Assembly (NCBI GenBank): GCA_023396615.1
Contig: JAEWVM010000009.1
Coordinates: 966 to 64,965, forward strand
DNA from: Spirochaetota bacterium
GTDB lineage: Bacteria; Spirochaetota; UBA4802; JAFGJZ01
Direction: 5' to 3'
DNA: 64,000 nucleotides
In this document: in pieces, positions 19,734 through 31,306 of the stretch
Layout: each line of letters begins with the position of its first letter
How positions within the stretch are numbered: position 1 is the stretch's first letter
Made by a program: the position numbers and the translations under genes
The notes under the pieces: model-generated
Seen by the model: the letters and a program-made list of their open reading frames with translations, nothing else
The model's database searches: none
What the model was told of the DNA's origin: nothing

Positions 19734-20546
19734 ATGAATATTCTCAAAAAACATCTCTTAAACATTATCGGAGCTTCAGTACTCGCTTTGAGCATATCGG
19801 GTCTTATTACCGGTACCGCCCGGATAGTCATACATCCAGGCGAAAAAACCAGACAGACAGCGCCCAAAGTATTTCAGGCAGAAAATACGGAAAAAATCAC
19901 CGATTATAATTTCATACTGAATTCAAATTTTTTTCAACTTTCCACCGCTCAAAGCTCAGAAAACGTTCAATCGGCTTCACCTGCAAATTTAATACTGCTG
20001 GGCACGGTTACAGGCTCACCTTCACTGGCCAGAGCAATGATAAGATCCGCTTCAGAAAATAAGGTCGAAATATTCAAAATAGGATCTTCAGCATGGGGCT
20101 ATACTCTCGTCAGAATTTTGAAAACCAAGGTATTATTGAAATCAGGTTCCAACGAATTTGAACTCGACATGCTTAAACAAGAAGGTTCCTCATCCGGTCC
20201 GCAATCAGGATTTCAGCCTGCAACAAAAAAGACAATAAGCAAAGCTGAACTTCTCACAAAAATTCAGGGCAATATGGACAATATGCTGAAGGGAATGAGA
20301 GCCGGACCCTACCGTGAAGACGGTCAGATCAAAGGGTACAAGATTATGGGACTCAGTAAAGACAATATGCTTTATGAACTTGGAATCCGTCAGGGAGACA
20401 TCATTATGAGAATAAATGGTCATCCAATTGACAGCACTCAGAAATTGTTTGAACTTTGGCAGAAGCTTCCGCAGGAGCCGAAGGCACTAATTGACATTAA
20501 ACGCGGAAATGAAACAACGACTCTCGATTATACTTTTTCGAATTAG
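19734..20546 (+). CDS. gspC: Type II secretion system protein C (GspC) with C-terminal PDZ domain
   Basis: N-terminal TM anchor; C-terminal PDZ (GYKIMGLSKDNMLYELGIRQGDIIMRINGHPI). First gene of the gsp cluster. ATG at 19734 chosen over the track's 19695. Confidence 0.55.
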   Translation: MNILKKHLLNIIGASVLALSISGLITGTARIVIHPGEKTRQTAPKVFQAENTEKITDYNFILNSNFFQLSTAQSSENVQSASPANLILLGTVTGSPSLARAMIRSASENKVEIFKIGSSAWGYTLVRILKTKVLLKSGSNEFELDMLKQEGSSSGPQSGFQPATKKTISKAELLTKIQGNMDNMLKGMRAGPYREDGQIKGYKIMGLSKDNMLYELGIRQGDIIMRINGHPIDSTQKLFELWQKLPQEPKALIDIKRGNETTTLDYTFSN

Positions 20547-20552
20547 GTGAAT

Positions 20553-22343
20553 ATGATGAATCTCAAAAAAGCGGCTTTATTGATATTATTGATTTTTGTT
20601 TTTTCTCCGGCGGTTGCCCAGAAAAAAACAACCGCAAAAAAAGCTCCTACGAATTTCATTCTTAATTTTAAGGATGTTGAAATATCCGACTTTATCACCA
20701 TGATGAGTCAGATACTGAATAAAAACGTTGTTTACGATGAACAATTGCGCGGAAAAATAACAATCAGTTCTTCAAAAAATATTCCTATTTCTCAGGCCCG
20801 CGAAGTTCTTATCACGATTCTATCCGTAAAAGGCTATACCATTGTTGAAATGCCGAACCTGATAAGAGTTGTCCCTTTGAAAGATGCTCCTAAGGAAACC
20901 GACCTCATAATTGTTGACGGTCAGGAAATCAAATTTAAGGATGATACAAGCATAGTATACACCTGCGAAATAGAATCCGGCGATTTAAATGAGATTTTCA
21001 GGACACTGAACACAGTAAAAACCAATGCTATGAGCATTGTAGCTTATCCTCCGCTCAAATACATTATTTTCAATGGTTCAGCCAGAGAAATATCGAGCCT
21101 TGTGAAACTTGCCAAATCACTCGACAAATCAGCTTCCGGAAATACCGATGCCATCGACGCACAGAGCTTCATACATGTTGTTAAACTTCAGAATTCAAAG
21201 GCCGAGGATATGGCAGCAGTTCTATCGAAAGTGCCGACAAAAAGCTCTCTTCAATCTCAGCGAGCAACACCGACATCACCGAACCAGCCGCCGCATCAGG
21301 TAAAAAATGAACAGATATCGATCATTCCAAGCAAAGATACTAATTCCCTTATAATAACTGCAACACCTGAAGAATTTGCCGAAATAAAACGCCTTATAAA
21401 CGCTCTTGATACCGTCAGAGATCAGGTTCTCATAGAAGCCGTAATTATGGAAGTCAATACAAGCGACGGATGGACTTTCGGAATAGACTGGTTTTTAAGA
21501 GGGAGCGCGGGGCAAGGAAACGCCTTCGGCGAACAAATACTTGGAAATGTTCCCAACTATACTGAAAAGAGTATATATAACACAACCGTTCCGCTTTTTA
21601 CCGGTTTTAATCTCGGATACTTTTCCGGAAAGGGTGCACTGGGTTTTCTTTTATTGAACGCGACGGCAAATGATAATAAAGTTAATATTCTTTCAACACC
21701 TCAGATTCTAACACTCGACAATCAGGAAGCCGTTATTTACGCAGGATCGGAAGTTCCTGTTCCGACAAACGCAAAATATGATTCAAATAACAATTTGACT
21801 TACACTTTTGATTATAAATCTGTCGGAATTAAACTCAAGGTTACGCCTCACATAACTGATACGGACCGCATAACTCTTGATCTCTATCAGGAAGCGAATT
21901 CAATAATAAGTGAAGGAACGATTGAAGGAGCAACCTACACTCCTCCGACTCTAGGCAAAAGAGATATTACGACGAAAGTAACCGTATATGACGGAAAAAC
22001 GATCGTTGTCGGCGGATTGATAAGCAATCAGGCAAGCACGGTAGAAACCAAAGTTCCTATTCTTGGAGATATCCCCCTTTTGGGATGGCTGTTCAAAAAC
22101 AAAACCGTTAAAAACGAAAAGAAAAATCTTTTGATTTTCATATCACCGACCATCGCAACAAAAAAAGAAGTCATTGAAAACATTTCCAATGAAAAAATCA
22201 ATGAACACAAAAAGCTTAACGGCGAATTCAAGTATTATAAAGAAAAAGGAAAAGAAATCGAATCGAAAGAAAAGGACCAGCCGGTAAAAGCTGAAGAAAA
22301 CGCAACCGATGACGCAAAAAATGAACAGAAAGAAGTGAAATAA
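20553..22343 (+). CDS. gspD: Type II secretion system secretin GspD
   Basis: Signal peptide, N0/N1 domains, secretin core ...PILGDIPLLGWLFKN..., and a K/E-rich C-terminal tail. Confidence 0.85.
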   Translation: MMNLKKAALLILLIFVFSPAVAQKKTTAKKAPTNFILNFKDVEISDFITMMSQILNKNVVYDEQLRGKITISSSKNIPISQAREVLITILSVKGYTIVEMPNLIRVVPLKDAPKETDLIIVDGQEIKFKDDTSIVYTCEIESGDLNEIFRTLNTVKTNAMSIVAYPPLKYIIFNGSAREISSLVKLAKSLDKSASGNTDAIDAQSFIHVVKLQNSKAEDMAAVLSKVPTKSSLQSQRATPTSPNQPPHQVKNEQISIIPSKDTNSLIITATPEEFAEIKRLINALDTVRDQVLIEAVIMEVNTSDGWTFGIDWFLRGSAGQGNAFGEQILGNVPNYTEKSIYNTTVPLFTGFNLGYFSGKGALGFLLLNATANDNKVNILSTPQILTLDNQEAVIYAGSEVPVPTNAKYDSNNNLTYTFDYKSVGIKLKVTPHITDTDRITLDLYQEANSIISEGTIEGATYTPPTLGKRDITTKVTVYDGKTIVVGGLISNQASTVETKVPILGDIPLLGWLFKNKTVKNEKKNLLIFISPTIATKKEVIENISNEKINEHKKLNGEFKYYKEKGKEIESKEKDQPVKAEENATDDAKNEQKEVK

Positions 22344-29928: not shown

Positions 29929-30446
29929 GACTCACGGAAAGAGAAAGAAAATTACTTTATGCTTTAATCGCCATTCTTGTACTCGCGGTTTCATATAAGC
30001 TTATATACGAACCCGTTGCTTCTTTTCGGGAATCTCTGAAAAAAAGGGCATTTAATTCCCAGTCTTCAGCAGAAGAACTTTCAAGAATATCATCTGAAAT
30101 AAATTCACTTAGAACGAAAAAGCAGAAATACGATCTTATTCTACGGTCAGAAAACGATAATATTATGACTGTTATTCAGCAAAAAGCCGAGCAGAACAAC
30201 ATAAAGGACAATCTCGCTAATATCAGAAGTACACCAAGCAATTTTCAGAATAAATTCAAAAAGGTTACCACCGATTTTAAAATTGAAGGAGCTCCCATTC
30301 AGTCAATACTCAAATTTATTTTTGACATGGAAAATTCAGGCGGCTTTATAGTTTTCGAATCTGTTACCATATCGAAAGGTCTCAAAGGAACCGACCGGTA
30401 TGACGCATCATGCAAGGTAAACACTTTCATGGCTGATAACAAATGA
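29925..30446 (+). CDS. gspM: GspM-like bitopic protein
   Basis: N-terminal TM (LLYALIAILVLAVSY) plus a periplasmic domain; position after gspL; ATGA overlap. Confidence 0.45.
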   Translation: MRLTERERKLLYALIAILVLAVSYKLIYEPVASFRESLKKRAFNSQSSAEELSRISSEINSLRTKKQKYDLILRSENDNIMTVIQQKAEQNNIKDNLANIRSTPSNFQNKFKKVTTDFKIEGAPIQSILKFIFDMENSGGFIVFESVTISKGLKGTDRYDASCKVNTFMADNK

Positions 30447-31306
30447 ATAGAATAAACGAAATCTTCAGAAAAATATTTCAATATGCAAAAAATCTTTACG
30501 ATGATGCAAAGGCGCACCCTTTTTTTAAACGCTACGTTGTTTTAACCTGCATATTGACAGCAGTATTCACTCTTATTCTTTTTCCGGTTGATACAATAAT
30601 TTTAAAAGTATTAAGAGATGCCGAAGGTAAGTCTTTTCAATCCGCCGAAGTTTCAAATCTTAAAGCTTCTTTATTCGGCGATATTTCAATTGATTCAATG
30701 AAAATCAATCTCCGGTCACGTGAAGAAGTTTCGATCAGCAAGTTTGATTCAACAATATCAGTTTTCTCTCTGATTAGGGGCAATGCTGACGGGGAAATCA
30801 ACTCCGAACAGTTTTCTTTTTCGTCGCCTAAGTTCAAGTTTACATCAAAGATAAAACTGATTCCTGATGCGGAATACAGCACCAAAACAGGTATTTTTAC
30901 AAACGGCACTCTAACAGTGAAATTAACCAACTCACTGCTGGAAGGATTATCAATTGCCGGATTTAATATAAAACCGGCAAACATTGAATCTGTAAACGGA
31001 GAAATCCTTTTTCAGGACAAGAAATATAATATTAAGGTCATTAAAATTGACGGTCAGTCGCTCAGGGGAACCATAACAGGAACAATTATTCCGAACGAAA
31101 ATAATTTTTCGCTCTCCGTTCTCGACATCAGCTGTTCATTTGATCCCCAGTCCGGAATGTTCGACGATTACCGTATGCTTATCAACTATCTTATAGATAA
31201 AGACAGCGGGAAAATACTCATCAAACTTAAAGGAACAATTGCTAATACTGAAGTAATTACTCCAAAAATGAATATGCCTCAAATGGAAGCAAAAGATGAC
31301 AAATGA
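30443..31306 (+). CDS. gspN: GspN-like protein
   Basis: Single N-terminal TM then a beta-rich periplasmic region; last gene of the cluster; overlap with gspM. Confidence 0.4.
   Translation: MNRINEIFRKIFQYAKNLYDDAKAHPFFKRYVVLTCILTAVFTLILFPVDTIILKVLRDAEGKSFQSAEVSNLKASLFGDISIDSMKINLRSREEVSISKFDSTISVFSLIRGNADGEINSEQFSFSSPKFKFTSKIKLIPDAEYSTKTGIFTNGTLTVKLTNSLLEGLSIAGFNIKPANIESVNGEILFQDKKYNIKVIKIDGQSLRGTITGTIIPNENNFSLSVLDISCSFDPQSGMFDDYRMLINYLIDKDSGKILIKLKGTIANTEVITPKMNMPQMEAKDDK

What the first reader, a model, noticed from the sequence alone, without database searches (positions are those of the whole stretch)
19734..31306. Complete, translationally coupled T2SS gene set gspC through gspN
Twelve consecutive plus-strand genes encode, in order, a GspC with PDZ domain, a secretin, the GspE ATPase, the GspF platform, GspG and four minor pseudopilins, and GspL/M/N-like proteins. 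The pseudopilins carry canonical G|F/Y-x-x-L-E prepilin motifs. Most junctions are 4-nt ATGA overlaps or gaps of a few nt. No prepilin peptidase (gspO) is in the cluster. The secretin carries an unusual ~70-aa K/E-rich C-terminal tail. A full gspC-N set is not universal, and its cargo is not evident here, though the patatin lipase, M15 peptidase and vWA/CHB_HEX_C proteins are candidates.
Basis: partly seen in the sequence, partly recalled or inferred. Interest (0 to 1): 0.5.

Follow-up and report, generated by a model that had tools for sequence, protein, structure and literature searches.

The report
Spirochaete type II secretion gene cluster
This is an intact, ordinary type II protein-secretion gene cluster (gspC to gspN) of the kind already known from Leptospira and many uncultured spirochaetes, so it is a sound annotation and not a discovery.

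Summary
Twelve consecutive + strand genes (19734-31306) encode GspC, D, E, F, G, H-like, I, J, K, L, M and N. Curated profiles place D, E, G and N above NCBIfam cut-offs and J, K, L and M above Pfam cut-offs. C, F and I give significant hits below cut-off. H is assigned only by position and its prepilin motif. All 11 junctions overlap or leave at most 6 nt. The window is about 97% identical in protein to a public Spirochaetota MAG. The same 12-gene order recurs in three more distant spirochaetal loci whose flanks differ. GspN matches the Leptospira-type model, and GspE carries an N-terminal MshEN c-di-GMP-binding domain, as recently noted for L. interrogans GspE. No prepilin peptidase lies in the 64 kb, which is normal because gspO is often encoded elsewhere. 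The secretin tail is 62 aa. Its first ~26 aa form a charged helix shared by 120 homologues. Only the last ~37 aa are a fast-diverging extension specific to this lineage. The patatin gene has no signal peptide and is not a conserved neighbour, so it is a poor cargo candidate. Verdict: a new member of a known kind, of low interest.

The parts
19395..19733 (+). 339-nt intergenic leader upstream of gspC; the presumed promoter region
   Evidence: The only sizeable gap on this strand before the cluster. It holds only a weak promoter-like site at 19604-19633, 9 of 12 matches. There is no Rfam match and no unusually stable fold, z = +0.64.
19734..20546 (+). gspC (270 aa): N-terminal TM helix, HR-like domain, C-terminal PDZ
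   Evidence: NF041515 GspC_delta E = 2e-29 (103 bits, cut-off 150). TIGR01713 E = 2.7e-17. Pfam T2SSC covers residues 13-137 and PDZ_2/PDZ_6 cover 214-265, both just below gathering score. One TM helix at residues 8-26.
20547..22343 (+). gspD secretin (598 aa): signal peptide, N0, two ring-type N domains, secretin barrel, C-terminal helix and a charged extension
   Evidence: TIGR02517 scores 387 bits, above its 351 cut-off. Pfam finds N0, Secretin_N and Secretin. The best solved relatives are T2SS GspD/PulD by sequence and by fold. AF2 model domains are given and the tail analysis.
22346..24013 (+). gspE ATPase (555 aa) with an N-terminal MshEN (c-di-GMP-binding type) domain
   Evidence: TIGR02533 scores 665, above its 630 cut-off. 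NF053729 c-di-GMP motif scores 52.9, above its 38 cut-off, at residues 5-57. Pfam MshEN covers 72-142 and T2SSE covers 171-551. The two 24-residue motifs were checked. Walker A (GPTGSGKTT) and the CxxC...CxxC pair are visible in the translation.
24010..25254 (+). gspF inner-membrane platform (414 aa, 3 TM helices)
   Evidence: Pfam T2SSF x2, E = 5.7e-55. TIGR02120 is the best hit at 360 bits, below its 424 cut-off. TM helices.
25261..25719 (+). gspG major pseudopilin (152 aa)
   Evidence: TIGR01710 scores 136, above its 89 cut-off. Pfam T2SSG E = 1.6e-33. Motif G|FTTLE.
25710..26252 (+). gspH-like minor pseudopilin (180 aa)
   Evidence: Only the N_methyl prepilin motif is recognised. Motif G|FTLLE. 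The position between G and I is conserved in L003, L005 and L006. The globular part was not assignable.
26215..26610 (+). gspI minor pseudopilin (131 aa); overlaps gspH by 38 nt
   Evidence: XpsI E = 8e-7 and TIGR01707 gspI E = 2.4e-6, both below cut-off. Motif G|YALLE. Orthologues occupy the same position in related loci.
26612..27241 (+). gspJ minor pseudopilin (209 aa)
   Evidence: Pfam T2SSJ scores 33.4, above its 28 gathering score. N_methyl present. Motif G|FSLLE.
27238..28401 (+). gspK minor pseudopilin (387 aa), no Glu5
   Evidence: Pfam T2SSK_1st scores 41.4 (gathering score 26.2) and T2SSK 27.1 (gathering score 24.2). NF037980 E = 2.6e-32. Motif G|YTLGI.
28402..29928 (+). gspL (508 aa): PilM/actin-like cytoplasmic domain, one TM helix (351-369), periplasmic domain
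   Evidence: Pfam PilM_2 scores 42.3 (gathering score 27) and T2SSL 30.5 (gathering score 25.5). The only PDB sequence hits are PilM. The bitopic topology is the GspL architecture.
29925..30446 (+). gspM (173 aa, N-terminal TM helix)
   Evidence: Pfam T2SSM scores 39.2, above its 27.8 gathering score. TM helix at 10-28.
30443..31306 (+). gspN, Leptospira type (287 aa, N-terminal TM helix)
   Evidence: TIGR04411 T2SS_GspN_Lepto scores 76.3, above its 50 cut-off. 99 representative relatives, mostly about 270-310 aa long. It is the last gene of the cluster in L003, L005 and L006.
31296..31637 (+). ylbF/ymcA-like gene (113 aa) overlapping the gspN stop by 11 nt; probably co-transcribed but not a conserved part of the system
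   Evidence: Pfam Com_YlbF scores 65.8, above its 23.9 gathering score. Overlap shown. It is found next to gspN only in the near-identical L001 and L002, not in L003, L005 or L006.

Best explanation
This is a complete structural gene set for a type II secretion system (T2SS) of the Leptospira/Spirochaetota type, in an uncultured spirochaete.

Inferred mechanism, from what is established for homologous systems:
1. Substrates cross the inner membrane by Sec or Tat and fold in the periplasm.
2. The GspE hexamer is docked on the cytoplasmic actin-like domain of GspL and on polytopic GspF. It uses ATP to assemble a short GspG pseudopilus.
3. The pseudopilus is capped by the GspK-I-J(-H) tip.
4. GspC (TM helix, HR domain, PDZ) links the inner-membrane platform (L, M, N, F) to the N0 domain of the GspD secretin.
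5. The growing pseudopilus pushes cargo out through the secretin.

The pseudopilins need a prepilin peptidase that must be encoded outside this 64-kb window. GspE carries an apparently intact MshEN domain, so its activity is probably modulated by c-di-GMP. The tight gene packing implies one operon with translational coupling.

Shown here: gene content, order, intactness, family assignments, motifs, topology and conservation of the cluster. Inferred: secretion activity, c-di-GMP control, operon structure and cargo.
For: Family assignments above curated cut-offs: D, E, G and N (NCBIfam) and J, K, L and M (Pfam). C, F and I give significant hits below cut-off.

The secretin is closest to solved T2SS secretins by sequence (6hcg 230 bits against PilQ 130) and by fold (the top 8 Foldseek hits are all T2SS secretins).

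Topologies fit each component. Prepilin motifs are present in G-J and absent-Glu5 in K. All 11 junctions are overlaps or gaps of at most 6 nt.

The same C-D-E-F-G-H-I-J-K-L-M-N order occurs in L003, L005 and L006, at 23-72% protein identity and with unrelated flanks. This argues for a selected functional unit.

The source is a Spirochaetota MAG. T2SS has been reported in Spirochaetes (PMC6668835) and Leptospira GspD has been characterised (PMC7768463).

MshEN: NF053729 is above its cut-off. Motif II fits the published relaxed pattern exactly. Motif I fits except at one hydrophobic position, with Arg replaced by Lys, which the relaxed pattern allows (pattern from PMC5013675). L. interrogans GspE LIC_11571 has the same domain (PMC12943098).
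Against: - No prepilin peptidase lies in the window.
- GspH could not be confirmed beyond its N-terminal motif.
- GspL scores higher on PilM than on GspL models.
- The best solved relatives of GspE are T4aP PilB proteins (497 bits against 451 for EpsE).
- GspC and GspF fall below NCBIfam equivalog cut-offs.
- No substrate has been identified and no experimental data exist for this lineage.
- Motif I of MshEN has Glu where a hydrophobic residue is expected, so c-di-GMP binding is not assured.
Confidence: 0.88

Rival explanations
1. The cluster builds a type IV pilus or another type-IV-filament machine (adhesion, motility or DNA uptake) and not a secretion system.
For: GspL matches PilM_2 better than T2SSL, and its only PDB hits are PilM. 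The GspE full-length alignment is best to Geobacter and Myxococcus PilB and includes the MshEN domain typical of MshE and PilB. A Com_YlbF-family gene follows gspN.
Against: PilB, PilQ, PilC and ComG models all score below their cut-offs and below the Gsp models. GspC, the T2SSG-domain pseudopilin, GspK, GspM and GspN are all present. No separate PilN, PilO or PilP, no PilT retraction ATPase and no long major pilin lies in the cluster or the window. L is a PilM-TM-periplasmic fusion, which is the GspL architecture. The ylbF-like gene is not a conserved neighbour.
Confidence: 0.06
2. The cluster is a decaying or silent remnant with no current function.
For: No gspO lies nearby. No cargo is evident. 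Several components are too divergent to reach curated cut-offs.
Against: All 12 ORFs are intact, with start and stop coupling preserved. Order and lengths are conserved across loci that share only 23-57% identity. Catalytic motifs of GspE and the prepilin motifs are intact.
Confidence: 0.03
3. The patatin, TatD, M15, vWA and CHB_HEX_C genes nearby are dedicated cargo of this T2SS, making this a cargo-linked locus.
For: VanY/M15 (35480-36217), vWA (39038-40696) and the CHB_HEX_C/Fn3_assoc protein (40745-41980) have signal-peptide-like N-termini.
Against: The patatin protein starts directly with its GxGxxG motif, has no signal peptide and is RssA-like. TatD is cytoplasmic. Neither patatin nor TatD is found in any related locus held, and L005, L006 and L007 have unrelated upstream genes. 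M15 VanY/LdcB enzymes normally act in the periplasm. The other candidates lie 8-10 kb away, beyond unrelated genes.
Confidence: 0.1

Closest known systems
Leptospira interrogans T2SS (GspD LIC_11570, GspE LIC_11571 and neighbours)
   Same: Both are spirochaete hosts. GspN matches the Leptospira-type model TIGR04411 above its cut-off. GspE has an N-terminal MshEN domain, as reported for LIC_11571 (PMC12943098). Neighbouring genes match Leptospira-named families LIC_10450 and LIC10012.
   Different: No direct sequence comparison with Leptospira proteins could be made here. The best database relatives are uncultured Spirochaetota MAGs at 45-57% identity (GspD), and none is a named Leptospira among the best 120. 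This lineage adds a ~37-aa charged extension to the secretin and a ylbF-like gene coupled to gspN.
Classical gammaproteobacterial T2SS (Klebsiella Pul, Vibrio Eps, Pseudomonas Xcp)
   Same: The component list C-N is the same, including the order G-H-I-J-K-L-M-N. The secretin fold is closest to PulD, EpsD and XcpQ. GspK lacks Glu5. GspC has a PDZ domain.
   Different: Three periplasmic N domains are predicted (N0 plus two), where four are usual (AF2 model; only one Pfam Secretin_N hit). GspE has a c-di-GMP-type MshEN N-terminus; Xanthomonas XpsE, for example, has a degenerate one (PMC5013675). GspL is PilM-like in sequence. No pilotin, gspAB or gspO lies in the cluster. GspN belongs to a different (Leptospira-type) family and gives no Pfam T2SSN hit.
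Type IVa pilus machinery (PilB, PilC, PilM, PilN, PilO, PilP, PilQ)
   Same: The ancestry is shared. GspE is 497 bits to Geobacter PilB. The cytoplasmic domain of GspL hits PilM. The secretin hits PilQ at lower scores.
   Different: No PilT, PilP or separate PilN and PilO, and no PilA-type major pilin. GspC, GspK, GspM and GspN are present. All Pil models score below their cut-offs.
MshE / PA14_29490-type c-di-GMP-binding secretion ATPases
   Same: Tandem 24-residue motifs separated by a 5-residue spacer lie at the extreme N-terminus (residues 5-28 and 34-57). NF053729 is above its cut-off.
   Different: Motif I has Lys for the first Arg and Glu at a hydrophobic position. Binding has not been tested.

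Membership tests
Type II secretion system (T2SS) | Outer-membrane secretin of GspD type (N0 domain plus secretin barrel) | tested here: met
   TIGR02517 scores 387, above its 351 cut-off. Pfam finds type_II_gspD_N0, Secretin_N and Secretin. The PDB sequence and fold searches are both topped by T2SS secretins.
Type II secretion system (T2SS) | GspE-type assembly ATPase | tested here: met
   TIGR02533 scores 665, above its 630 cut-off. PilB scores 607, below its 676 cut-off. Walker A and the tetracysteine motif are present.
Type II secretion system (T2SS) | GspF polytopic platform protein | tested here: met
   Pfam T2SSF gives two repeats, 185 bits against a 25 gathering score. The NCBIfam GspF equivalog is the best hit but scores 360, below its 424 cut-off.
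Type II secretion system (T2SS) | Major pseudopilin GspG with a T2SSG domain and prepilin motif | tested here: met
   TIGR01710 scores 136, above its 89 cut-off. Pfam T2SSG is present. Motif G|FTTLE.
Type II secretion system (T2SS) | Minor pseudopilins GspI, GspJ and GspK (tip complex) | tested here: met
   J and K are above Pfam gathering scores. I hits gspI and XpsI at E of about 1e-6, below cut-off. K lacks Glu5.
Type II secretion system (T2SS) | Minor pseudopilin GspH | tested here: inconclusive
   Only the N-terminal prepilin motif is recognised. The AF2 model is poor (pLDDT 58) and Foldseek finds nothing. The assignment rests on its conserved position between G and I.
Type II secretion system (T2SS) | GspC (TM helix, HR domain, PDZ or coiled coil), the T2SS-specific connector | tested here: met
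   Three GspC models hit at E = 2e-29, 2.7e-17 and 2.2e-11. Pfam T2SSC and PDZ are also hit. All are below curated cut-offs, so homology is significant but divergent. One TM helix at residues 8-26.
Type II secretion system (T2SS) | GspL and GspM assembly platform | tested here: met
   Pfam T2SSL scores 30.5 (gathering score 25.5) and T2SSM 39.2 (gathering score 27.8). L is bitopic with a PilM-like cytoplasmic domain.
Type II secretion system (T2SS) | Prepilin peptidase (GspO/PilD) in the genome | tested here: inconclusive
   No ORF of at least 110 aa in the 64-kb window hits Peptidase_A24. gspO is treated as a 'loner' gene in the MacSyFinder model (PMC6668835).
Type II secretion system (T2SS) | Diderm host | tested here: met
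   The nearest record is titled Spirochaetota bacterium. The window also encodes an AsmA/DUF748-like protein.
Type II secretion system (T2SS) | Secretion of folded periplasmic substrates | not testable with these tools
   This needs exoproteomics of a mutant.
Leptospira-type T2SS subfamily | GspN of the TIGR04411 family as the last gene of the cluster | tested here: met
   TIGR04411 scores 76.3, above its 50 cut-off. The position is the same in L003, L005 and L006.
MshEN c-di-GMP receptor domain | Two 24-residue RLGxx(L/V/I)(L/V/I)xxG(L/V/I)(L/V/I)xxxxLxxxLxxQ motifs joined by a 5-residue spacer | tested here: met
   NF053729 scores 52.9, above its 38 cut-off. Residues 34-57 fit the relaxed published pattern. 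Residues 5-28 fit it except at position 11, which is Glu. The spacer is 5 residues. Neither motif fits the strict pattern.
MshEN c-di-GMP receptor domain | Actual c-di-GMP binding | not testable with these tools
   This needs ITC or DRaCALA on the purified domain.
Type IVa pilus system | Separate PilM, PilN, PilO and PilP, a PilT retraction ATPase and a PilA major pilin | tested here: not met
   No such genes lie in the cluster or the window. Pil models are all below their cut-offs.

The most novel reading that the evidence does not exclude
In this spirochaete lineage the T2SS is a secretion machine gated by c-di-GMP. GspE senses the messenger directly through its intact MshEN domain. Two lineage-specific additions tune assembly or expression in ways not seen in model T2SSs: the ylbF/Ric-like gene translationally coupled to gspN, and the ~37-aa charged extension of the secretin, which might stand in for a missing pilotin.
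Probability: 0.1. Interest if true: 0.4.

Novelty: new member of a known kind. Interest (0 to 1): 0.15.

Why it matters
The result gives a clean, fully itemised example of the spirochaete-type T2SS outside Leptospira. It shows that the 12-gene order is a conserved unit across divergent Spirochaetota. It also supports the idea, raised for Leptospira, that the T2SS ATPase is a c-di-GMP receptor. It does not open a new question. T2SS in Spirochaetes, gspO encoded away from the cluster, and MshEN-bearing GspE proteins are all already described.

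Tried and rejected
1. GspH identity. Profiles of four orthologues against PDB sequences hit only the pilin N-terminal helix. The word-indexed homologue search returned only relatives at 91-100% identity. The resulting AF2 model was poor (pLDDT 58) and Foldseek gave no hit at E of 0.001 or better. GspH remains unconfirmed.
2. GspI profile against PDB: nothing significant.
3. A riboswitch or structured leader upstream of gspC, for example a c-di-GMP riboswitch. There was no Rfam hit at gathering score over the whole window, none at E of 1 or better on 19350-19780, and the fold was no more stable than shuffles. 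Rejected.
4. The promoter and terminator scan over 18.5-33.5 kb found no more promoter-like sites than shuffles (34 against 38.9). Only the 11-of-12 site at 31657-31685, in the ylbF-pilZ gap, is noteworthy.
5. Looking up the source contig through the 100%-identical GspH cluster P0127 found no record.
6. Patatin as cargo was rejected: no signal peptide, and not a conserved neighbour.
7. ylbF, pilZ and the LIC_10450-like gene as system components were rejected as conserved parts, because they are present only in near-identical loci.
8. Tandem repeats in the region are only two trivial short arrays.
9. Zeng et al. 2013 on the Leptospira exoproteome (PMC3783971) is not held.

Full report
**1. Observation**

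ORF listing shows twelve consecutive + strand ORFs between 19695/19734 and 31306, with no competing long ORFs on the other strand. I took the ATG at 19734 as the gspC start, because it gives a short basic N-terminus followed by one TM helix.

The junctions, measured directly on the sequence, are listed below. A negative number is an overlap.

| Junction | nt | Junction | nt |
|---|---|---|---|
| C/D | 0 | I/J | +1 |
| D/E | +2 | J/K | -4 |
| E/F | -4 | K/L | 0 |
| F/G | +6 | L/M | -4 |
| G/H | -10 | M/N | -4 |
| H/I | -38 | | |

- Four junctions are ATGA overlaps, five are gaps of 0-6 nt, and two are longer overlaps.
- The H/I overlap is needed for GspI to keep a leader before its G|YALLE motif. 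H and I also overlap in related loci (L003, L005).
- A 339-nt gap precedes gspC. It has no Rfam match and no unusually stable fold.

**2. Identity of each product**

Pfam and NCBIfam scans give the following.

| Gene | Main evidence | Against curated cut-off |
|---|---|---|
| GspC | GspC_delta E = 2e-29; TIGR01713 E = 2.7e-17; Pfam T2SSC and PDZ | all below |
| GspD | TIGR02517 387 bits (cut-off 351); N0, Secretin_N, Secretin | above |
| GspE | TIGR02533 665 bits (cut-off 630) | above |
| GspF | Pfam T2SSF x2; TIGR02120 360 bits (cut-off 424) | Pfam above, NCBIfam below |
| GspG | TIGR01710 136 bits (cut-off 89) | above |
| H-like (180 aa) | prepilin motif only | not assigned |
| GspI | gspI and XpsI, E about 1e-6 | below |
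| GspJ | Pfam T2SSJ | above |
| GspK | Pfam T2SSK_1st and T2SSK | above |
| GspL | Pfam T2SSL; PilM_2 scores higher | above |
| GspM | Pfam T2SSM | above |
| GspN | TIGR04411 'T2SS_GspN_Lepto' 76 bits (cut-off 50) | above |

- Hydropathy gives the expected topology for every component: a signal peptide on D, three TM helices in F, one N-terminal helix in C, G-K, M and N, a single TM helix at 351-369 in L, and none in E.
- Prepilin motifs are G|FTTLE, G|FTLLE, G|YALLE and G|FSLLE in G-J. GspK has G|YTLGI without Glu5, which is characteristic of GspK from general knowledge.
- Competing T4P and competence models (PilQ, PilB, PilC, ComG) all score lower and below their cut-offs.

**3. Source and conservation**

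- A scan of one genome per species with GspN found a Spirochaetota MAG contig with 97% identity (L001) and another with 90% (L002).
- GspD has more than 2,000 relatives. The best 120 are at 45-57% identity beyond the closest few, and where named they are annotated as GspD or secretin from uncultured Spirochaetota.
- Three distant loci carry the same gene order from C or D through N, with unrelated flanking genes: L003 (GspN 27% identical), L005 (GspD 57%) and L006 (a 4.8-Mb contig, GspD 49%).
- Conservation follows the usual T2SS gradient, with E the most conserved, then F and D, then G, K and C, and H, J, L and N the least.
- An exhaustive phmmer of GspN against 1.84 billion representatives gave 99 hits, nearly all about 270-310 aa long.
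- The cluster is therefore a conserved, selected unit that is typical of the phylum.
- T2SS in Spirochaetes is already recognised (PMC6668835), and Leptospira GspD has been studied as a vaccine antigen (PMC7768463).

**4. The secretin**

- In the 120 homologues, the stretch after the last barrel strand motif (LLxFxxP) is about 26 aa at the median. It forms a conserved charged helix of the form xVVTKxEKLEAITxQKREEQRRLK.
- Only the window protein and its three closest relatives (72-97% identity) have 63-64 aa. The extra ~37 aa are rich in K, E, D and N and diverge quickly.
- An AF2 model built on the 121-sequence alignment (mean pLDDT 71.6) predicts these elements:
  - N0 at 36-110
  - one ring-type N domain at 135-193
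  - a second N domain at 209-287, with an inserted loop
  - the barrel at 293-536
  - a long helix at 540-576
  - a disordered end at 577-598
- That is three N domains where the classical secretin has four. Only one Pfam Secretin_N hit is found.
- Foldseek against the PDB puts eight T2SS secretins on top (PulD E = 1e-28), followed by InvG and PilQ. The sequence search agrees.
- The 'unusual tail' is thus a modest lineage-specific extension of a normal C-terminal helix. Its function is unknown, and a role like the pilotin-binding S-domain is only speculation.

**5. The ATPase**

- The first 57 residues match the curated c-di-GMP-binding MshE-type motif model above its cut-off.
- I checked the published motif (PMC5013675) directly.
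  - Residues 34-57 (RFGEALLKRGAVTEEALLRALSKQ) fit the relaxed pattern.
  - Residues 5-28 (KIGEILVQNGELTQTELEAILKLQ) fit it except at one hydrophobic position, which is Glu.
  - The first Arg of motif I is Lys, which the relaxed pattern allows.
  - The spacer is five residues.
- The same domain was recently reported in L. interrogans GspE LIC_11571 (PMC12943098). c-di-GMP binding has been shown for the related P. aeruginosa PA14_29490 (PMC5013675).
- c-di-GMP control is therefore plausible but not new.
- The best solved relatives of the full-length protein are Geobacter and Myxococcus PilB (about 495 bits), ahead of Vibrio EpsE (451 bits). Part of the difference arises because PilB shares the N-terminal domain.

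**6. What is not there**

- No ORF of at least 110 aa in the 64 kb matches an A24 prepilin peptidase.
- No pilotin, GspA/B, PilT or PilP was found either.
- gspO is treated as a 'loner' gene in the MacSyFinder T2SS model (PMC6668835).

**7. Cargo**

- The patatin-like protein upstream (17591-18649) has no signal peptide and is RssA-like.
- Neither patatin nor TatD is found next to the cluster in any related locus.
- The VanY/M15, vWA and CHB_HEX_C/Fn3_assoc proteins have signal-peptide-like N-termini. They lie 4-10 kb away, beyond unrelated genes.
- No cargo can be named.

**8. Downstream genes**

- A ylbF/ymcA-family gene overlaps the gspN stop by 11 nt.
- An 83-nt gap follows, holding a near-consensus TTGACA-17-TAGAAT site (31657-31685).
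- After the gap come a PilZ-domain gene with RxxxR and DxSxxG motifs and a LIC_10450-family-like gene.
- These three genes occur next to gspN only in the near-identical loci L001 and L002. They are not conserved parts of the system.

**9. Verdict**

- The cluster is an intact Leptospira/Spirochaetota-type T2SS gene set. It is a new member of a known kind.
- Its small peculiarities are a three-N-domain secretin with a charged extension, a PilM-like GspL and an MshEN-bearing GspE. All of these except the extension appear to be shared with the other spirochaetal clusters examined.
- Interest is low.

Noticed in passing
window 31296-31637 (+): A YlbF/YmcA (Ric)-family gene overlaps the gspN stop codon by 11 nt. 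This family is best known from Bacillus competence, biofilm and RNA-maturation control. The linkage to the T2SS is seen only in near-identical MAGs (L001, L002).
   Followed up: partly
window 31657-32987 (+): A near-consensus sigma-70-like site (TTGACA-17-TAGAAT, 31657-31685) lies in the 83-nt gap after ylbF. It is followed by a small PilZ-domain gene (31721-32098, with RKFKR and DISQGG motifs) and, 1 nt later, a 295-aa LIC_10450-family-like gene (113 bits, below the 150 cut-off).
   Followed up: partly
window 60135-62435 (+): A 766-aa protein combines LacI-type periplasmic-binding-like domains with a C-terminal GGDEF diguanylate cyclase domain. This is a possible local source of c-di-GMP in a window that also holds a PilZ gene and the MshEN-bearing GspE.
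   Followed up: no
window 4732-9539 (-): A canonical heat-shock operon, hrcA-grpE-dnaK-dnaJ. ClpB lies at 42067-44652 (+).
   Followed up: no
window 39038-41980 (+): Two adjacent signal-peptide-bearing proteins: a 552-aa weak vWA / LIC10012-family-like protein and a 411-aa protein with Fn3_assoc and CHB_HEX_C_1 domains. They are possible exported proteins, but no link to the T2SS was shown.
   Followed up: partly
L006 11812-13513: In the 4.8-Mb relative, gspE is called as two ORFs (347 aa and 199 aa). This suggests a frameshift or an assembly error in that genome.
   Followed up: no
window 4025-4636 (-), 15535-15924 (-), 44649-45257 (+): Three small proteins with no Pfam hit have lipoprotein-like N-termini: a hydrophobic stretch ending in Cys (LIFSC, VISC, FSGC).
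   Followed up: no
window 11681-15538 (-): A HAMP-SpoIIE (PP2C) phosphatase lies next to a 770-aa TPR-repeat protein with a signal peptide. The phosphatase is a partner-switching-type signalling gene of the kind common in Leptospira-like genomes.
   Followed up: no
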